From Escherichia phage T5_ev219, in sequence record NC_134263.1: a stretch of 64,000 nt of DNA; one strand, given 5' to 3'. The position numbers and the translations under genes were made by a program. How positions within the stretch are numbered: position 1 is the first letter of the stretch; each line of letters begins with the position of its first letter. This document shows, piece after piece, positions 1-39,735 of this stretch. The notes beneath the pieces were generated by a model. That model worked only from the letters and a program-made list of their open reading frames with translations, did not search any database and had not been told where the DNA came from.

Positions 1-32
1 TACCCGTATTCTGCAAATTGAGAGGGAATTAG

Positions 33-350
33 ATGTTTAGTATTATAATTGCTTTTATTATCGGGGTACTTGCGGGAATTTTCGGAATGACTGCGGCTAT
101 TAACAAGCATCGTAAGTATACTGCGGAAGTATCGCGGGAGATTGCGGAAAGAGAGCGAAGGTTTGACGAGAAACGTGCGGAGTTTGAGCGGGAGTGGTCG
201 GATGGATCTCTTCCGCGACGCGGAAGAGATTCCGTGAGTTCAGACCAGAACACAGGTTTGATGATCCTTCTATGCGCTAATTGGGAAATCTCGAAATTTC
301 ATAAGATTACACATGGAGGTGTGCTCACTGCCCCGGGCGAAAATACTTAG
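33..350 (+). CDS. hypothetical small protein with hydrophobic N-terminus
   Basis: ORF track; N-terminal hydrophobic segment then charged region; followed by hairpin at 402-436. Confidence 0.4.
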   Translation: MFSIIIAFIIGVLAGIFGMTAAINKHRKYTAEVSREIAERERRFDEKRAEFEREWSDGSLPRRGRDSVSSDQNTGLMILLCANWEISKFHKITHGGVLTAPGENT

Positions 351-401
351 TCTGCTAACCGCCACCCCCGTTACTATTACCCTGCTAACTGTTTCACCCT
401 G

Positions 402-436
402 CAACCATTTTAATTGCAGGGTGAAACAATTTCAAC
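402..436. terminator. 13-bp-stem hairpin between convergent genes (possible bidirectional terminator)
   Basis: tttcaccctgcaa / ttgcagggtgaaa inverted repeat; flanking U-run weak. Confidence 0.4.
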
Positions 437-9124: not shown

Positions 9125-9469
9125 ATGGTTATTTATGAGGGCAATCGTTTTGTTGCTAATTGCCGTCCGGCATTACTAGCAAACTATTTAAACCAGCTTT
9201 CCCCAGCTTACAAGGGCGTTATTAATATTTATGAGGGCAAGGCGCATTATAAAATTAATGCGGTCGTTGCCCGTGAACTAGCGTTTCAATTTTTGACCTT
9301 TGCATCTTGTGACGTTCAGGTTATGGGTGAAGCATTAATTGCGGAAAATGAAGATGATTTTATTAATATTTTCCGCAAGGTATGTACCGAGCGCCTGATA
9401 ATGAAAGGCGCATATATTCAATCCACTGCGGATAGTATTGAAACAGCGTTTCGAAAGGTGGCGCAATGA
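9125..9469 (+). CDS. hypothetical protein
   Basis: Track ORF 9017..9469 trimmed to Met at 9125, which abuts the stop of the upstream gene. Confidence 0.5.
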   Translation: MVIYEGNRFVANCRPALLANYLNQLSPAYKGVINIYEGKAHYKINAVVARELAFQFLTFASCDVQVMGEALIAENEDDFINIFRKVCTERLIMKGAYIQSTADSIETAFRKVAQ

Positions 9470-9494
9470 GATTATATAATAACGGAGCGTTATT

Positions 9495-9698
9495 ATGAGC
9501 AATAAAATTGTTGTAACCAAAATCAGTACAATGGTTGACGTTTTTTATGTGCCCGATACGCCGGAAAACCGACAAGCGGTCGAGCGGGGCGAATATGATA
9601 GCGTTATTTATGATGCCGATGGTTATTATCATCATTTGGTCGATTCCTATGGGGAAGAGGAGAAGATCACGCATCGACTACCCGAGGGGGATTTATGA
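9495..9698 (+). CDS. hypothetical protein
   Basis: 67-aa ORF. Confidence 0.45.
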   Translation: MSNKIVVTKISTMVDVFYVPDTPENRQAVERGEYDSVIYDADGYYHHLVDSYGEEEKITHRLPEGDL

Positions 9699-9849
9699 AA
9701 CGATGGTTTAATCACTGGTATAAGCGGTTTTTAGTACGCCGTCGCAAGTCTAGACAACAAGATGAGTGGCGGGAGTGGGCAAAGCGTAACGGTTGCCCAC
9801 TACTATAATAATAACGGGGCGCAACTATCAGGGAGTGCCCCCAATTCTC

Positions 9850-9870
9850 AAATGAGAATCATTCTCATTT
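9850..9870. repeat. 21-bp perfect palindrome
   Basis: aaatgagaatcattctcattt. Confidence 0.7.
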
Positions 9871-10065
9871 GACCGCGCCCGCGATGGTTAGCCTGCTAAT
9901 GATTAGGGTGTTACGTGTCGCCTTGTGTGATCGTTAGCGAGCTAACTAATTTTCAAGCCTCCTCCAATTTTGCCCTTGTTTTAGTATCCCCACCAAAATT
10001 AAACGCGTTAGAATGCGATCTAGGACGTTTTAACGCTATATTAGAACTATTCACTGCATAGGAAT

Positions 10066-10085
10066 ACTGTATATTTATACAGTAG
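10066..10085. promoter_or_regulatory. LexA (SOS) box consensus palindrome
   Basis: tactgtatatttatacagta contains CTGT-N8-ACAG; adjacent TTATCAACA-like motifs and a perfect DnaA box (ctgtggataa) at 10166-10175. Confidence 0.5.
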
Positions 10086-10189
10086 GATAAGCTGTTGATA
10101 AGTCTGTTGATAACGCTTCAAAATGGCTAGGATTCTGTCAAGTCAAATCGTGCTGTTAATAAGCCTGTGGATAACTTAAATAACAGTGT

Positions 10190-10370
10190 TTCTCATTCCC
10201 GTTTTTAAACGAGAATCATTATCATTCGCATTCCACTATCTAACTGATAATCATTCCACTTTTTAAATGAGAATCATTTCACTTCCTGAATAATTTTCAT
10301 TTCACTTTCTAAATGCAAATCATTATCATTCGCATTCCGCTTTTTAAATGCGAATGATTCTCATTTGTAT
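10190..10370. repeat. array of degenerate ~20-35-bp repeats
   Basis: tttttaaa(c/t)g(a/c)gaatcatt units at 10202, 10260, 10340; atcattatcattcgcattcc twice. Confidence 0.65.
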
Positions 10371-10408
10371 TAGCATTCAGGCGAGCAGGGCAATTGCCCT
10401 GCGCTTTT

Positions 10409-11010
10409 GTGCAAATCCGACATTTGCCCCCATGGATTACACGTGGGCGTGTATGTGCAAATCCGACAATTTTTGGTAGTGTGCAAATCCGACCCGAAAA
10501 ATTTTTATAGTGTGCGAATCCGACAATGAATTTTCCCAAAAACTCCAGCAATCACGAACTGCGTTCGAATCCTGTGGAATTAGCTAGAGTATGTGCAGAT
10601 CCGACATGAGTTTATTTGTGCGAATCCGACAAGATTTTTGTGACTTCGATTGGAGGGTGTGTGATTGTATAGGTTTGAGGAGAAGGTGAGAGAGCGAGAA
10701 AAATTTGGGAGGCTAGAAGGATGTGGGCGCAGGATTGGTGCGGAGCACCTGATTTGCGGGGATTTTGGGGAATAGTTGAGATAATTTGGGAAGATTTGAG
10801 ATAGGTGCAGAAAAAGTGAAATTTTATTAGCTAAACGGGGTAAAATAGCTTGACAAGTGAAAATTCTTGTGGCTCTAAAAACTCAGGCAATCATGGGCCT
10901 TCGGCCCGAAATAATGCTGCCATTTTCAGGGTTCCTAAAAACTTAGGAGACTCCTGTCATTGTGCAAATCCGACCATAAATTTCTAGAAACACAATGTGC
11001 AAATCCGACA
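10409..11010 (+). repeat. eight same-orientation copies of 14-bp motif GTGC(A/G)(A/G)ATCCGAC(A/C)
   Basis: Copies at 10409, 10455, 10480, 10512, 10593, 10618, 10962, 10997; ninth copy at 12851 inside an ORF. Confidence 0.7.
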
Positions 11011-11518
11011 GTAATTTCTGGAAATGTGTTTTCAAAAAATGTCTTCTAGAAATAACCGCCCTCCCTATAACCGCCCTGTATTAACCGCCTATTGCTGGAG
11101 TTTCTAGGAACATGAAAACCGCCTGAGTTGACTAGAGAAACAGATTTAAAGTTTAATGTAAACTCTAGAGTTAGTGCTCAACTATTCCTAGAAACTTAGG
11201 AATCTAGAAGAAAGTGTTGTGCCATCCTAGCAGATGAGCGGCAACAGGTGTATCATCTTGAACACAGATATTGCCTTTAAATATTTTTTAGTTATTTAAA
11301 AGTAAATATACCCCCATTTCATGAGAGCTTACTCGTGGGGCGCGTGAGTATTACGGAAGACTTAGTAATTAGATCTATACTCGTGCTGTCGCAACGTATA
11401 GACGTAATACTAAGTGTAATAATCATCGCCCCTAGAGTTCAAAACAAGAGTTGTTTTTAATCTATGAGATTATTATAACATGTGCCGCAATGAGTTGTCA
11501 AGAAGATTTTGTTAATGT

Positions 11519-33284: not shown

Positions 33285-33641
33285 TTAGTTTAACCGTAAA
33301 GTATTATCTACTTCACCATTAATTGTTCGGCATTCCTCTGGGATTGCCGGGGTGGCCTTGTATTCCCACCACTCAGCACCATCATATTCCCCACGTTCTA
33401 GCCAAGTTCCATCGGCAAACCATACATTACCATAAAGTAATTGTCCACCGTATCCAGAATCATATTCAAAGTCTAGGTTATTAAGAAAATCCTCAATATC
33501 TTCTTCTGCATAACCTAAAGGTAATACCCAAACTTTTTTATCCCCATAATACCCGAATTCTATTTTAATACACTTAACTTCAGAATTAGTATTTTTTAAG
33601 GCAAGTAACAGCTCTTCTTTAGCATTACGCATATTACGCAT
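33285..33641 (-). CDS. hypothetical protein
   Basis: Track ORF 33285..33728 trimmed to Met30 because the N-terminal extension runs into tRNA-Asp. Confidence 0.5.
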   Translation of the reverse strand: MRNMRNAKEELLLALKNTNSEVKCIKIEFGYYGDKKVWVLPLGYAEEDIEDFLNNLDFEYDSGYGGQLLYGNVWFADGTWLERGEYDGAEWWEYKATPAIPEECRTINGEVDNTLRLN

Positions 33642-37949: not shown

Positions 37950-38011
37950 ATATGTTATGGATGAGTGATCAAAGAGACACACATTTTCTATATACTAGGA
38001 GGTGTCAAAAA

Positions 38012-38992
38012 ATGACAGAAGAAGTAGCTAAGAGTCCTGAGACCGTCGCTAGCGTAGCAGCAGAACTGCATCGTCACGAGGAATCAGATAAGAAAAAGTG
38101 GGAGAAGGTCAGAGCCTACGAAGAAGAACATCGTGAACACGATGATAAAGATGAAGAAGATGACGATGATGTACGTTGTCATAAATATGGAAAATATAAA
38201 ATGCAAGAACCAGTAAACGTATTTACTAACGGCTTCCCTGGCATGGGTGCATTCCCAGCTAACGCAAGTGCTTTCGGTGGAGAAGGTATGGGTCTATTCG
38301 GAGCTATCCTAATCGGTGCTCTATTAACCGGCGGATTTGGTGGTTTTGGTGGTTTTGGTCGTGGTGCTGGCGTTGCCGCTGAAGGAACCGCTGTGGACGC
38401 GATCCTTTCTAACCAGGATACTGCAAGTATTCTAGCTGCAATCAATACTACTCGTACAGAAGCTAACCAGGGCACTGGGGCTGTTCTAAGTGCAGTAAAC
38501 GGTGTGGGAGCTGCTCAAGCTGCTAGCACTCAGCAAGTTCTGACTACTATCTACGGTACAGGTGCTAATCTGTCAAACCAGATCTGTGCTGAAACTCGTA
38601 ACGTTATTCAGGGTCAGTTCGATCTTTCTCGTCAGATGGATCAATCTTTCGCTGCTAACCAGATAGCACGTGCTCAAGATAAGTTTGACTCTGCTCAGAT
38701 TGCTTTCCAGCAGTCTATTCAGACCAACAACCAGTTTGCCGCTGTTCAGGCTCAGATGTGCGCTAACCAGAACGCTATCGAACGTCAGCTTGCTGAATGT
38801 TGCTGTGAGCTTCAGACTGCGATCGCTGGTGTAACTACTGCACGTATCCAGGACGAACTGAATGAATGCCGTCTGCGCGAAGCAATCGCTGCAGGTAGCG
38901 GTGCAAATGGTCAGGTAATCAACCAAATCGCTGTAAGTCTTGGTGCTATCACTCAGACTCTGGCTGGTCTGCAGGCTAAACTGCCGGCTTAA
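38012..38992 (+). CDS. Gly/Ala/Gln/Asn-rich low-complexity protein with central hydrophobic Gly-rich segment
   Basis: Track ORF trimmed to MTEEVAK with AGGAGG RBS; acidic N-terminus, GMGLFGAILIGALLTGGFGGFGGFG segment, Q/A/N-rich C-terminus with ECCCEL. Confidence 0.6.
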   Translation: MTEEVAKSPETVASVAAELHRHEESDKKKWEKVRAYEEEHREHDDKDEEDDDDVRCHKYGKYKMQEPVNVFTNGFPGMGAFPANASAFGGEGMGLFGAILIGALLTGGFGGFGGFGRGAGVAAEGTAVDAILSNQDTASILAAINTTRTEANQGTGAVLSAVNGVGAAQAASTQQVLTTIYGTGANLSNQICAETRNVIQGQFDLSRQMDQSFAANQIARAQDKFDSAQIAFQQSIQTNNQFAAVQAQMCANQNAIERQLAECCCELQTAIAGVTTARIQDELNECRLREAIAAGSGANGQVINQIAVSLGAITQTLAGLQAKLPA

Positions 38993-39687: not shown

Positions 39688-39735
39688 TTAAATACAGAAA
39701 AGCCCTGCGCTCTCCAGGGAACGCAGGGCTTACTT
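39688..39735 (-). terminator. rho-independent terminator downstream of SPFH gene
   Basis: 8-bp stem gccctgcg/cgcagggc then U-run on minus strand. Confidence 0.65.

What the first reader, a model, noticed from the sequence alone, without database searches (positions are those of the whole stretch)
10640..10860. Strongly purine-skewed, cytosine-poor tract inside the repeat region
Roughly 200 bp on the plus strand are almost entirely G/A/T (for example ggagggtgtgtgattgtataggtttgaggagaaggtgagagagcgag), in sharp contrast to surrounding sequence. Such skew can mark R-loop or G-quadruplex-prone DNA, a strand-specific nick or pause site, or a binding platform.
Basis: seen in the sequence. Interest (0 to 1): 0.5.

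Follow-up and report, generated by a model that had tools for sequence, protein, structure and literature searches.

The report
G-rich phased tract ending T5 terminal repeat
The cytosine-poor stretch is real and is the last ~235 bp of the 10.5-kb terminal repeat of a T5-like phage, ending 10 bp before the point where the genome end is cut; its last 130 bp are thirteen 10-bp units built like DNA meant to wrap around a protein, so it is most likely part of the signal for cutting and packaging the genome.

Summary
Window 10640-10860 has 7.2% C and 36.7% G, against means of 20% and 19%. The best-scoring C-poor segment, 10631-10865, gives the strongest GC skew in the 64 kb and beats all 200 shuffles.

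The window is a T5-like phage. The tract is the inner flank of the right boundary of the terminal repeat (TR), which ends at 10875|10876. T5 (two records), Sw2 and Elw place the boundary there, and seven public T5-like genome-end loci stop at exactly that base.

The tract has two parts:
- **10631-10745:** a G/A-rich block.
- **10746-10875:** thirteen degenerate 10-bp units, each a G-run followed by an A/T-run. This is the strongest 10-bp periodicity in the window.

The composition and the phasing persist in relatives whose tract no longer aligns (Pantoea, Erwinia, Klebsiella and Serratia phages).

There is no canonical G-quadruplex motif, conserved ORF, Rfam match or promoter call here. The known nick motif lies about 230 bp to the left, on the other strand.

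My best reading (confidence about 0.4) is a protein-wrapping recognition platform for the terminase next to its cut site. A role in two-step DNA injection is the main rival. No function has been published for this tract.

The parts
10631..10865 (+). The whole C-poor, G-rich tract (maximal-scoring segment; 16 C of 235)
   Evidence: Homologous tracts in 26 other T5-like sequences have 5.6-9.8% C.
10631..10745 (+). Left sub-domain: G/A/T-rich with no helical phasing. It has a highly conserved 5' block (10631-10686) and a variable centre (10700-10740).
   Evidence: Conservation bins of 0.92-0.96, falling to 0.70-0.81 in the centre. Periodicity test p = 0.57.
10686..10698 (+). GTGAGAGAGCGAG, which aligns with a repeat copy GTGCGAATCCGA in Epseptimavirus relatives; apparently a decayed copy stripped of C
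   Evidence: Alignment.
10737..10749 (+). Small palindrome GGTGC-GGA-GCACC, which holds much of the tract's C
   Evidence: Epseptimavirus relatives keep the stem with a different loop (GGTGCTTCAGCACC). It is absent in the Pantoea/Klebsiella relatives.
10746..10875 (+). Right sub-domain: thirteen degenerate 10-bp units (G-rich at unit positions 2-5, A/T-rich at 6-10) running up to the TR end
   Evidence: AA/TT/AT periodicity power 3.10 at 10.0 bp, rank 1 of all 130-nt windows, 0 of 1000 shuffles reach it. GG signal about 165 degrees out of phase. Stacked view.
10765..10804 (+). Two tandem 20-nt copies TTGGGGAATAGTTGAGATAA / TTTGGGAAGATTTGAGATAG; by position they correspond to T5 'direct repeat A' copies 2 and 3
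   Evidence: (family D6).
10820..10930 (.). The most conserved block of the region; it spans the TR boundary and includes TTGACA (10851-10856) and TGTGGCTC (10868-10875)
   Evidence: Conservation bins of 0.95-1.0 across 10820-10919, falling to 0.83 beyond. The stretch around 10804-10881 is the only part still found by BLAST in Pantoea and Klebsiella phages.
10875..10876 (.). Right boundary of the terminal repeat, i.e. the right physical genome end in the right-hand copy: ...CTTGTGGCTC|TAAAAACTC
   Evidence: Same point in T5 AY587007 and AY543070, Sw2 (PhageTerm) and Elw. Seven IMG/VR loci end exactly there. Slocum is 2 nt off and IME260 is 21 nt further on.
10895..10907 (-). Invariant hairpin GGGCCTTCGGCCC, 20 nt outside the boundary; annotated as a minus-strand terminator in Sw2
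10409..10630 (+). Six copies of GTGCRAATCCGAC (T5 'direct repeat D') on the left flank of the tract
   Evidence: (12 matches against 1.4 expected).
10962..11009 (+). Two further copies of the same repeat, same orientation, outside the TR on the right flank
10397..10404 (-). CCCTGCGC, the annotated T5 major nick (7.9%) motif inside palindrome GCAGGGCAATTGCCCTGC; it is not part of the tract
321..322 (.). Inferred left boundary of the terminal repeat (...GGAGGTG|TGCTCACTGCC), giving a TR of about 10,554 bp
   Evidence: T5 position 5 maps to window 326. Contexts.

Best explanation
The tract is the repeat-side flank of the right boundary of the long direct terminal repeat of a T5-like phage. I propose that it is a cis-acting terminus and packaging element. 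Its last 130 bp would be a one-orientation array of thirteen 10-bp units, with a G-run on one helical face and an A/T-run on the opposite face. This array would bend or wrap around an oligomeric DNA-recognition protein, most plausibly the terminase small subunit or holoenzyme. That would position the nuclease for the cut at 10875|10876 and start packaging of the right-hand genome end. The flanking TGTGCRAATCCGAC repeats (six on the left, two or three on the right) may be the sequence-specific anchor sites. On this reading the cytosine poverty is a by-product: every unit puts its G-run on the same strand.

**Shown:** the position at the TR end, the composition, the 10-bp phasing, and the conservation of both across genera.

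**Inferred:** that a protein wraps the array, that this protein is terminase, and that packaging starts at this end. The last point rests on the last-in-first-out rule, because the left end of T5 DNA is injected first.
For: 1. **Position.** The tract ends 10 bp before the TR boundary. T5 (two records), Sw2 (PhageTerm) and Elw all place the boundary at the homologous base, and seven genome-end loci stop there.
2. **Phasing.** Window 10746-10875 has the strongest 10-bp AA/TT/AT periodicity in the window (power 3.10, rank 1; 0 of 1000 shuffles reach it). GG is 160-180 degrees out of phase. A period of 10.0-10.25 bp, shorter than the roughly 10.5-bp helical repeat of free DNA (background knowledge), is what DNA wrapped on a protein surface typically shows.
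3. **Conservation without sequence identity.** AAS21 and KEY have 3-4 C and 40-43 G per 100 nt. Roth39 and IME260 have 4-10 C and 45 G per 100 nt. All keep the 10-bp phasing (p <= 0.012). Slocum keeps the phasing but a weaker skew.
4. **Conserved boundary block.** The boundary block 10820-10919 is nearly invariant (0.95-1.0).
5. **Flanking repeats.** Same-orientation repeat arrays flank the cut on both sides. From background knowledge, this is the layout of P1 pac (4 + 3 hexamers) and SPP1 pacL/pacR.
6. **C avoidance in variants.** T>C variants occur at 0.18 per T site, against 0.34 for A>G per A site. In the left flank the two rates are about equal (0.34 and 0.30).
7. **Alternatives fail.** There is no conserved ORF, Rfam hit or promoter call.
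Against: - No binding, cleavage or genetic data exist for this tract. I found no paper describing T5 packaging signals.
- GenBank AY543070 places most of the tract inside its broad 'injection stop signal' feature.
- My wedge-model curvature estimate is only moderate, at the 5th-7th percentile. The case therefore rests on anisotropic bendability, not strong intrinsic curvature.
- The left half of the tract has no phasing, so this model leaves its skew unexplained.
- The left TR boundary has no comparable array.
- In Sugarlandvirus IME260 the annotated boundary is 21 nt further out.
- Six distant phages with an A1 homologue show no obvious counterpart.
- The packaging direction is inferred, and the last-in-first-out rule has itself been questioned for lambda in vitro.
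Confidence: 0.4

Rival explanations
1. The tract is part of the two-step DNA injection control. Its copy in the left repeat would help stop first-step transfer or restart second-step transfer. For example, it could be held at the portal or upper tail tube when transfer halts, or it could bind the A1/A2 proteins or a host protein.
For: - AY543070 annotates 9140-10149 as the injection stop signal, which covers most of the homologous T5 tract.
- The whole non-coding region is highly conserved, as Davison emphasises.
- My own estimate from textbook DNA geometry: with the shear point near T5 9618 and a DNA path through the tail of some hundreds of bp, the tract would sit in the upper tail or neck during the pause.
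Against: [quoted passage not shown] That puts them 290 bp or more to the left of the tract, and he assigns the tract no role.
- The tract hugs the TR boundary to within 10 bp in every lineage. An injection role does not require that.
- This cannot be tested in silico.
Confidence: 0.2
2. The tract has no sequence-specific function of its own. It would be a spacer made of decayed repeat copies whose skew reflects strand-biased mutation, for example if the plus strand is often single-stranded near the genome end.
For: - One segment aligns with an intact repeat copy in Epseptimavirus and looks like a C-depleted derivative of it.
- The centre of the tract is the least conserved part of the region (0.70).
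- The most distant A1-bearing phages lack an obvious counterpart.
Against: - Composition and 10-bp phasing persist where the sequence no longer aligns.
- Drift would not produce a 13-unit phased array ranked first in 64 kb.
- The 5' block and the terminal block are among the most conserved sequences of the region.
Confidence: 0.1
3. The tract acts through non-B DNA. G-quadruplexes on the G-rich strand, which is the 3'-ending strand at the right genome end, would act like a telomere (end protection or a block to exonuclease). Alternatively they would serve as a structural packaging signal, or as an R-loop when the tract is transcribed.
For: - There are seven runs of G>=3 against 1.3 expected. 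The tract has the highest G4Hunter score in the window at 50-200 nt scales.
- Sugarlandvirus tracts contain two canonical G4 motifs each.
- GGGGATTTTGGGG resembles a ciliate telomere unit (from my own background knowledge).
- A 2026 review states that herpesvirus pac signals can form G-quadruplexes.
Against: - There is no canonical G4 motif with loops up to 12 nt anywhere in the window. The 25-nt G4Hunter peak is 1.40, below the usual 1.5 threshold.
- Canonical G4 potential is absent from T5, Sw2, AAS21, KEY and Slocum, so it is not the conserved property.
- No promoter call reads into the tract.
Confidence: 0.08
4. The tract has a physical role at the leading end of the DNA. An easily bent first 130 bp of the first-packaged end would help form or anchor the first tight DNA loop inside the procapsid, without sequence-specific protein recognition.
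For: The 10-bp bendability pattern lies at the extreme right terminus. The right end is inferred to be packaged first.
Against: - This does not explain why all G-runs lie on one strand.
- It does not explain the invariant boundary block.
- I know of no precedent.
Confidence: 0.07
5. The tract is a strand-specific nick or translocation pause site.
For: T5-type DNA carries site-specific nicks, and one major nick lies in the same non-coding region. The tract contains GCGCAGGA, a 7-of-8 match to the nick motif.
Against: - Annotated nick motifs are CCCTGCGC on the plus strand (GCGCAGGG on the nicked minus strand), each inside a hairpin repeat. In the window they lie at 10397-10404 and 39703-39710.
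- The copy in the tract is in the opposite orientation, is incomplete and has no hairpin.
- The nicks are in the minus strand.
Confidence: 0.03

Closest known systems
Terminase recognition sites of tailed phages (lambda cosB next to cosN; P1 pac with 4 + 3 flanking hexamers; SPP1 pacL-pacC-pacR with bent DNA); comparison from background knowledge
   Same: It is a non-coding element directly beside the terminus-generating cut. Repeated short motifs flank the cut on both sides. The DNA is built to bend or wrap. It lies on the side of the cut that stays on the packaged molecule.
   Different: No terminase binding or cleavage has been shown here. The genome has 10.5-kb direct terminal repeats, so each packaging event needs two different boundary cuts and duplication of the repeat. 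The phased array is a degenerate 13-unit G-run/A-T-run series, not a few discrete sites.
T5 'injection stop signal' / Repeat Region 3 (GenBank AY543070, AY587007; Davison 2020, doi 10.1101/866236)
   Same: It is the same locus. The homologous T5 bases (about 9905-10125 of AY587007) lie inside Repeat Region 3, and mostly inside the 9140-10149 feature. T5 'direct repeat A' copies 2 and 3 lie in the tract.
   Different: The elements proposed to stop injection lie left of the shear point near 9618. The preprint contains neither 'G-rich' nor 'purine', and assigns the tract no role.
Herpesvirus pac1/pac2 packaging signals
   Same: They are G-tract plus T-rich elements a few tens of bp from the genome terminus, read by a terminase of the same virus realm. 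They are reported to be G-quadruplex-capable.
   Different: This phage has no canonical G4 motif. There is no sequence homology. The resemblance is one of logic only.
T7 terminal repeat / concatemer junction
   Same: It is a direct-terminal-repeat phage with site-specific boundary cuts. The right half of the 160-bp T7 repeat also has several GGG/TTT runs.
   Different: The T7 repeat half has 17 C of 80 nt and a skew of only +0.19, so it is not C-poor. The repeat is about 65 times shorter.
Nucleosome-positioning-type sequences (10-bp alternation of AA/TT and G/C-rich steps); comparison from background knowledge
   Same: A/T dinucleotides show a 10.0-10.25-bp periodicity in antiphase with GG.
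   Different: This is a bacteriophage context, the partner protein is unknown, and the G-runs are all on one strand.

Membership tests
Terminase recognition site (pac/cos type) | Lies next to the site where terminase cuts to make the genome end | tested here: met
   The tract ends 10 bp before the TR boundary at 10875|10876. That boundary is supported by T5 (two records), Sw2 (PhageTerm), Elw and seven genome-end loci.
Terminase recognition site (pac/cos type) | Contains repeated or bent DNA suited to binding an oligomeric protein | tested here: met
   Thirteen phased 10-bp units, rank 1 periodicity in the window, 0 of 1000 shuffles reach it. Flanking same-orientation repeat arrays. Predicted intrinsic curvature is only moderate.
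Terminase recognition site (pac/cos type) | Bound by the small terminase subunit and required in cis for packaging | not testable with these tools
   This needs footprinting and packaging or transduction assays. No literature was found.
T5 injection stop signal | Lies within the annotated feature | tested here: met
   AY543070 annotates 9140-10149 as the signal. The homologous tract is about 9985-10205 in that record, so most but not all of it falls inside.
T5 injection stop signal | Lies at or to the left of the first-step-transfer shear point (7.9%, about T5 9618) | tested here: not met
   The tract corresponds to AY587007 positions of about 9905-10125, which is 290-510 bp to the right of the shear point.
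T5 injection stop signal | Stops DNA transfer in cis | not testable with these tools
   This requires infection experiments.
G-quadruplex-forming sequence | Four runs of G>=3 with loops of 1-7 nt (also tested up to 12 nt) | tested here: not met
   No matches on either strand of the whole window. The feature is met only in the Sugarlandvirus relatives Roth39 and IME260.
G-quadruplex-forming sequence | G4Hunter score of at least 1.5 in a 25-nt window | tested here: not met
   The peak is 1.40 at 10749-10783.
T5 site-specific nick | CCCTGCGC on the plus strand (GCGCAGGG on the nicked minus strand) within a hairpin repeat | tested here: not met
   Full motifs lie at 10397-10404 and 39703-39710. 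The tract has only GCGCAGGA, on the plus strand and without a hairpin.
Sigma-70 promoter | -35 and -10 hexamers at 16-18 bp spacing | tested here: not met
   There is a perfect TTGACA at 10851, but the -10 position reads CTCTAA/TCTAAA and the scan made no call. The same 18-mer in unrelated phages is followed by a TATAAT-like -10 hexamer.
Protein-coding gene or known RNA family | A conserved reading frame or an Rfam match | tested here: not met
   The longest ORFs inside the tract are 27-36 aa. Start codons and frames are not conserved, and close relatives differ by single-base indels. There is no Rfam hit in the tract.

The most novel reading that the evidence does not exclude
The phased G-run array is a dual-use DNA translocation signal read by the portal-terminase machinery. 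In the right repeat copy it would nucleate the packaging complex. This could involve transient G-quadruplex or strand-specific G-run recognition, in a logic shared with herpesvirus pac1. In the left repeat copy the same array would sit in the neck or upper tail during infection and act as the physical brake that halts first-step transfer. That would locate the long-sought T5 stop mechanism in the virion, not at the cell membrane.
Probability: 0.08. Interest if true: 0.8.

Novelty: new member of a known kind. Interest (0 to 1): 0.45.

Why it matters
T5 is a classic model phage, yet I found no description of how its 10-kb terminal repeats are cut and duplicated during packaging. What stops and restarts its two-step DNA injection has been debated since the 1960s. 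This analysis turns an odd-composition stretch into a defined, bounded, evolutionarily constrained element: thirteen phased 10-bp units ending at the repeat boundary. That gives a concrete target for footprinting and mutagenesis that can separate a packaging role from an injection role. It would also help annotators place genome ends in the hundreds of T5-like phage assemblies deposited with collapsed or arbitrary termini.

Tried and rejected
- **Coding.** Only 27-36 aa ORFs lie in the tract. Start codons and frames are not conserved, and close relatives differ by single-base indels.
- **Known RNA.** There is no Rfam match in the tract.
- **Promoter.** The -35-like TTGACA has no usable -10, and the scan made no call. 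Three IMG/VR contigs share the 18-mer but are unrelated phages with ordinary promoters. I removed them from the alignment.
- **Tandem Repeats Finder.** It reported nothing. The 10-bp array is too degenerate and only spectral analysis and stacking revealed it.
- **IHF consensus.** There is none in the tract.
- **Chi.** There is no Chi-like octamer in the tract.
- **Intrinsic curvature.** I used my own wedge-model implementation with parameters recalled from memory. It gave only moderate values, so I treat this as inconclusive.
- **Similarity between the two boundaries.** Local alignment scored no better than shuffles. A 14-of-21 match at the same register occurs in the window and T5 but not in Sw2, Slocum or IME260. 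I treat it as probably chance or lineage-specific.
- **Analogues in other terminal-repeat phages.** The T7 repeat half is not C-poor. The SPO1 repeat end has palindromic G/C runs and no one-strand G array.
- **More distant relatives.** Six loci found through the A1 protein (40-49% identity) show no obvious tract or repeat cluster, and their termini are unknown. This is inconclusive.
- **Literature.** Searches for T5 packaging signals returned nothing relevant.

Full report
**1. The observation**

Window 10640-10860 contains 16 C, 81 G, 66 A and 58 T. That is 7.2% C and 36.7% G, against window means of 20.1% and 18.9%. At window sizes of 100, 150, 200 and 221 nt, the highest GC skew of the 64 kb falls here (0.69-0.78). 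A maximal-segment scan bounds the C-poor stretch at 10631-10865 (235 nt, 16 C) with score 16.3. The next real segment scores 9.8, and 200 shuffles reach at most 14.0. Purine content (66.5%) is 4 SD above the mean but only second in the window. The feature is better described as C-depleted and G-enriched than as purine-rich.

**2. Where it is**

- **Identity of the window.** The window is a T5-like phage. Positions 10000-11300 match 456 phage records and are about 91% identical to T5 overall. The stretch 10380-11120 is 97% identical to T5.
- **T5 annotation.** T5 annotations place the homologous bases at the end of the left terminal repeat. They lie inside Repeat Region 3 and mostly inside the broad 'injection stop signal' feature 9140-10149.
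- **Right boundary.** The repeat boundary maps to window 10875|10876 (...CTTGTGGCTC|TAAAAACTC). Both T5 records, Sw2 (PhageTerm) and Elw place it at the same base. Serratia phage Slocum (PhageTerm) is 2 nt away. Seven IMG/VR loci end exactly at that base. Two annotated boundaries differ: poul124 and Kenya-K38. Sugarlandvirus IME260 is annotated 21 nt further out.
- **Left boundary.** It maps to 321|322. The window therefore starts in the right unique end, and the repeat is about 10,554 bp.
- **Conclusion.** The tract is the last 235 bp or so of the terminal repeat. In the right-hand copy it is the extreme right end of virion DNA, and the G-rich strand is the 3'-ending strand.

**3. Anatomy**

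The tract fills the gap between copies 6 and 7 of the same-orientation repeat GTGCRAATCCGAC. Six copies lie at 10409-10630 and two at 10962-11009, against 1.4 matches expected by chance in the window. It has two parts.

- **Left part (10631-10745).** This is G/A/T-rich and shows no helical phasing (p = 0.57). It has a very conserved 5' block, a variable centre and a small palindrome at 10737-10749. One segment (10686-10698) aligns with an intact repeat copy in Epseptimavirus relatives.
- **Right part (10746-10875).** This has the strongest 10-bp AA/TT/AT periodicity of the whole window (power 3.10, rank 1; 0 of 1000 shuffles reach it). Stacked in rows of ten, it reads as thirteen units with G at positions 2-5 and A/T at positions 6-10. 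The GG signal is about 165 degrees out of phase with the A/T signal.

The block 10820-10919 spans the boundary and is nearly invariant (0.95-1.0).

**4. Conservation**

In 26 other Tequintavirus and Epseptimavirus sequences the tract has 5.6-9.8% C. In phages where the tract no longer aligns, the property persists.

| Relative | C per 100 nt | G per 100 nt |
|---|---|---|
| Pantoea AAS21, Erwinia KEY | 3-4 | 40-43 |
| Klebsiella Roth39, IME260 | 4-10 | 45 |
| Serratia Slocum | 11-17 | 25-33 |

All of these keep the phasing at 9.75-10.25 bp (p <= 0.012). Roth39, AAS21 and Slocum, the three tested, also keep the GG antiphase. Within the tract, T>C variants are about half as frequent per site as A>G variants, unlike in the left flank. 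Six distant phages found through an A1 homologue show no obvious counterpart, but their termini are unknown.

**5. What it is not**

- There is no conserved ORF, no Rfam match in the tract and no sigma-70 promoter call.
- There is no IHF consensus and no Chi-like octamer.
- No canonical G-quadruplex motif with loops up to 12 nt exists anywhere in the window. The G4Hunter 25-nt peak is 1.40. Only Sugarlandvirus tracts have canonical motifs.
- The annotated T5 nick motif CCCTGCGC lies at 10397-10404 and 39703-39710. T5-type nicks are in the minus strand. The tract carries only an incomplete copy in the opposite orientation.

**6. Mechanism**

The data show a bendability-phased, one-orientation array abutting a precisely conserved terminus-generating cut, flanked on both sides by short direct repeats. 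From background knowledge, this is the architecture of terminase recognition sites: lambda cosB, P1 pac and SPP1 pac.

The left end of T5 DNA is injected first. The generally accepted last-in-first-out rule (noted, and challenged for lambda, in PMC10287942) then implies that the right end is packaged first. That would put the tract on the leading end of the packaged DNA.

I therefore propose that it is a wrapping platform for the terminase complex (confidence about 0.4). The main rival (0.2) is a role in two-step injection. However, Davison's stop-signal candidates lie left of the shear point near T5 9618, and his text assigns no function to this tract. Other rivals are functionless drift, non-B DNA or telomere-like protection, a physical role for the leading end, and a nick or pause site.

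**7. Novelty**

The locus has long been part of the T5 sequence and is annotated broadly. In the searchable literature I found no description of the skewed tract, of its 10-bp phased array, or of any T5 packaging signal. If the proposal holds, it is a new member of a known kind (a pac/cos-type site). A loose parallel is the G-tract-containing herpesvirus pac signals.

**8. Limits**

All functional statements are inferences from sequence. The curvature estimate used my own implementation with parameters recalled from memory. Several relatives are not independent, because they align with the window. The strongest independent support comes from AAS21/KEY, the Sugarlandvirus pair and Slocum.

Noticed in passing
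window 10397-10404 and 39703-39710: T5's annotated major nicks 1 (7.9%) and 3 (32.6%) are both CCCTGCGC. In each case the motif sits inside a hairpin-forming inverted repeat. The same motifs and contexts are present in the window. A longer shared core (AGCGCAGGGC on the minus strand) may define the nickase site.
   Followed up: partly
window 321|322 and 10875|10876: Both repeat boundaries contain TGTG(G)CTC: left ...GGAGGTG|TGCTCAC and right ...CTTGTGGCTC|TAAAA. One 5-6 nt 5'-staggered cut within this motif, followed by fill-in, would produce both observed ends. This is speculative. The Sugarlandvirus annotation does not fit it.
   Followed up: partly
window 322-420, and the first 120 nt of T5, Sw2, IME260 and Slocum (L003, L164, L162, L163): The left end of the repeat is C-rich on the plus strand (skew -0.14 to -0.45), with a C-run (e.g. 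CCGCCACCCCC) 20-50 nt from the end. At both genome ends the 3'-ending strand therefore carries a run of G>=4 within about 50 nt of the terminus, in five lineages.
   Followed up: partly
window 11052-11093: Three copies of (T)AACCGCC(C)T lie 180-220 bp outside the repeat boundary. They are conserved in the Tequintavirus/Epseptimavirus alignment, AAS21, KEY, Roth39, VAC51 and (more loosely) Slocum. They form a C-rich counterpart on the other side of the cut from the G-rich tract.
   Followed up: no
window 10538-10554 and 10877-10893: A 17-nt direct repeat, AAAAACTC[CA][AG]GCAATCA. The second copy starts 2 nt after the repeat boundary. The first copy lies between repeat copies 4 and 5. An inverted partner lies at 11091-11113.
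   Followed up: no
window 10850-10867; loci L138, L141, L145: The exact 18-mer GCTTGACAAGTGAAAATT occurs in three unrelated IMG/VR phage contigs as the -35 region and spacer of promoters, each with a TATAAT-like -10 hexamer. In T5-like phages the -10 position is occupied by the genome-end cut site instead.
   Followed up: partly
window 10088-10180: A cluster of DnaA-box-like sequences (TGTGGATAA, TGTTGATAA, some 3 bp apart) lies left of the tract, as Davison describes for T5-like phages.
   Followed up: no
window 1-321: The window begins in the right unique end of the genome, in a small G-rich ORF with skew +0.32 to +0.47. The source assembly therefore has the terminal repeat collapsed or is permuted, and does not start at the physical left end.
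   Followed up: partly
window 33361-33582, 37997-38217, 56.6-59.0 kb: These are the other compositional extremes: a G-poor segment at 33.4 kb, the highest purine content in the window at 38.0 kb, and several C-poor segments at 56.7-59 kb. They were not examined.
   Followed up: no
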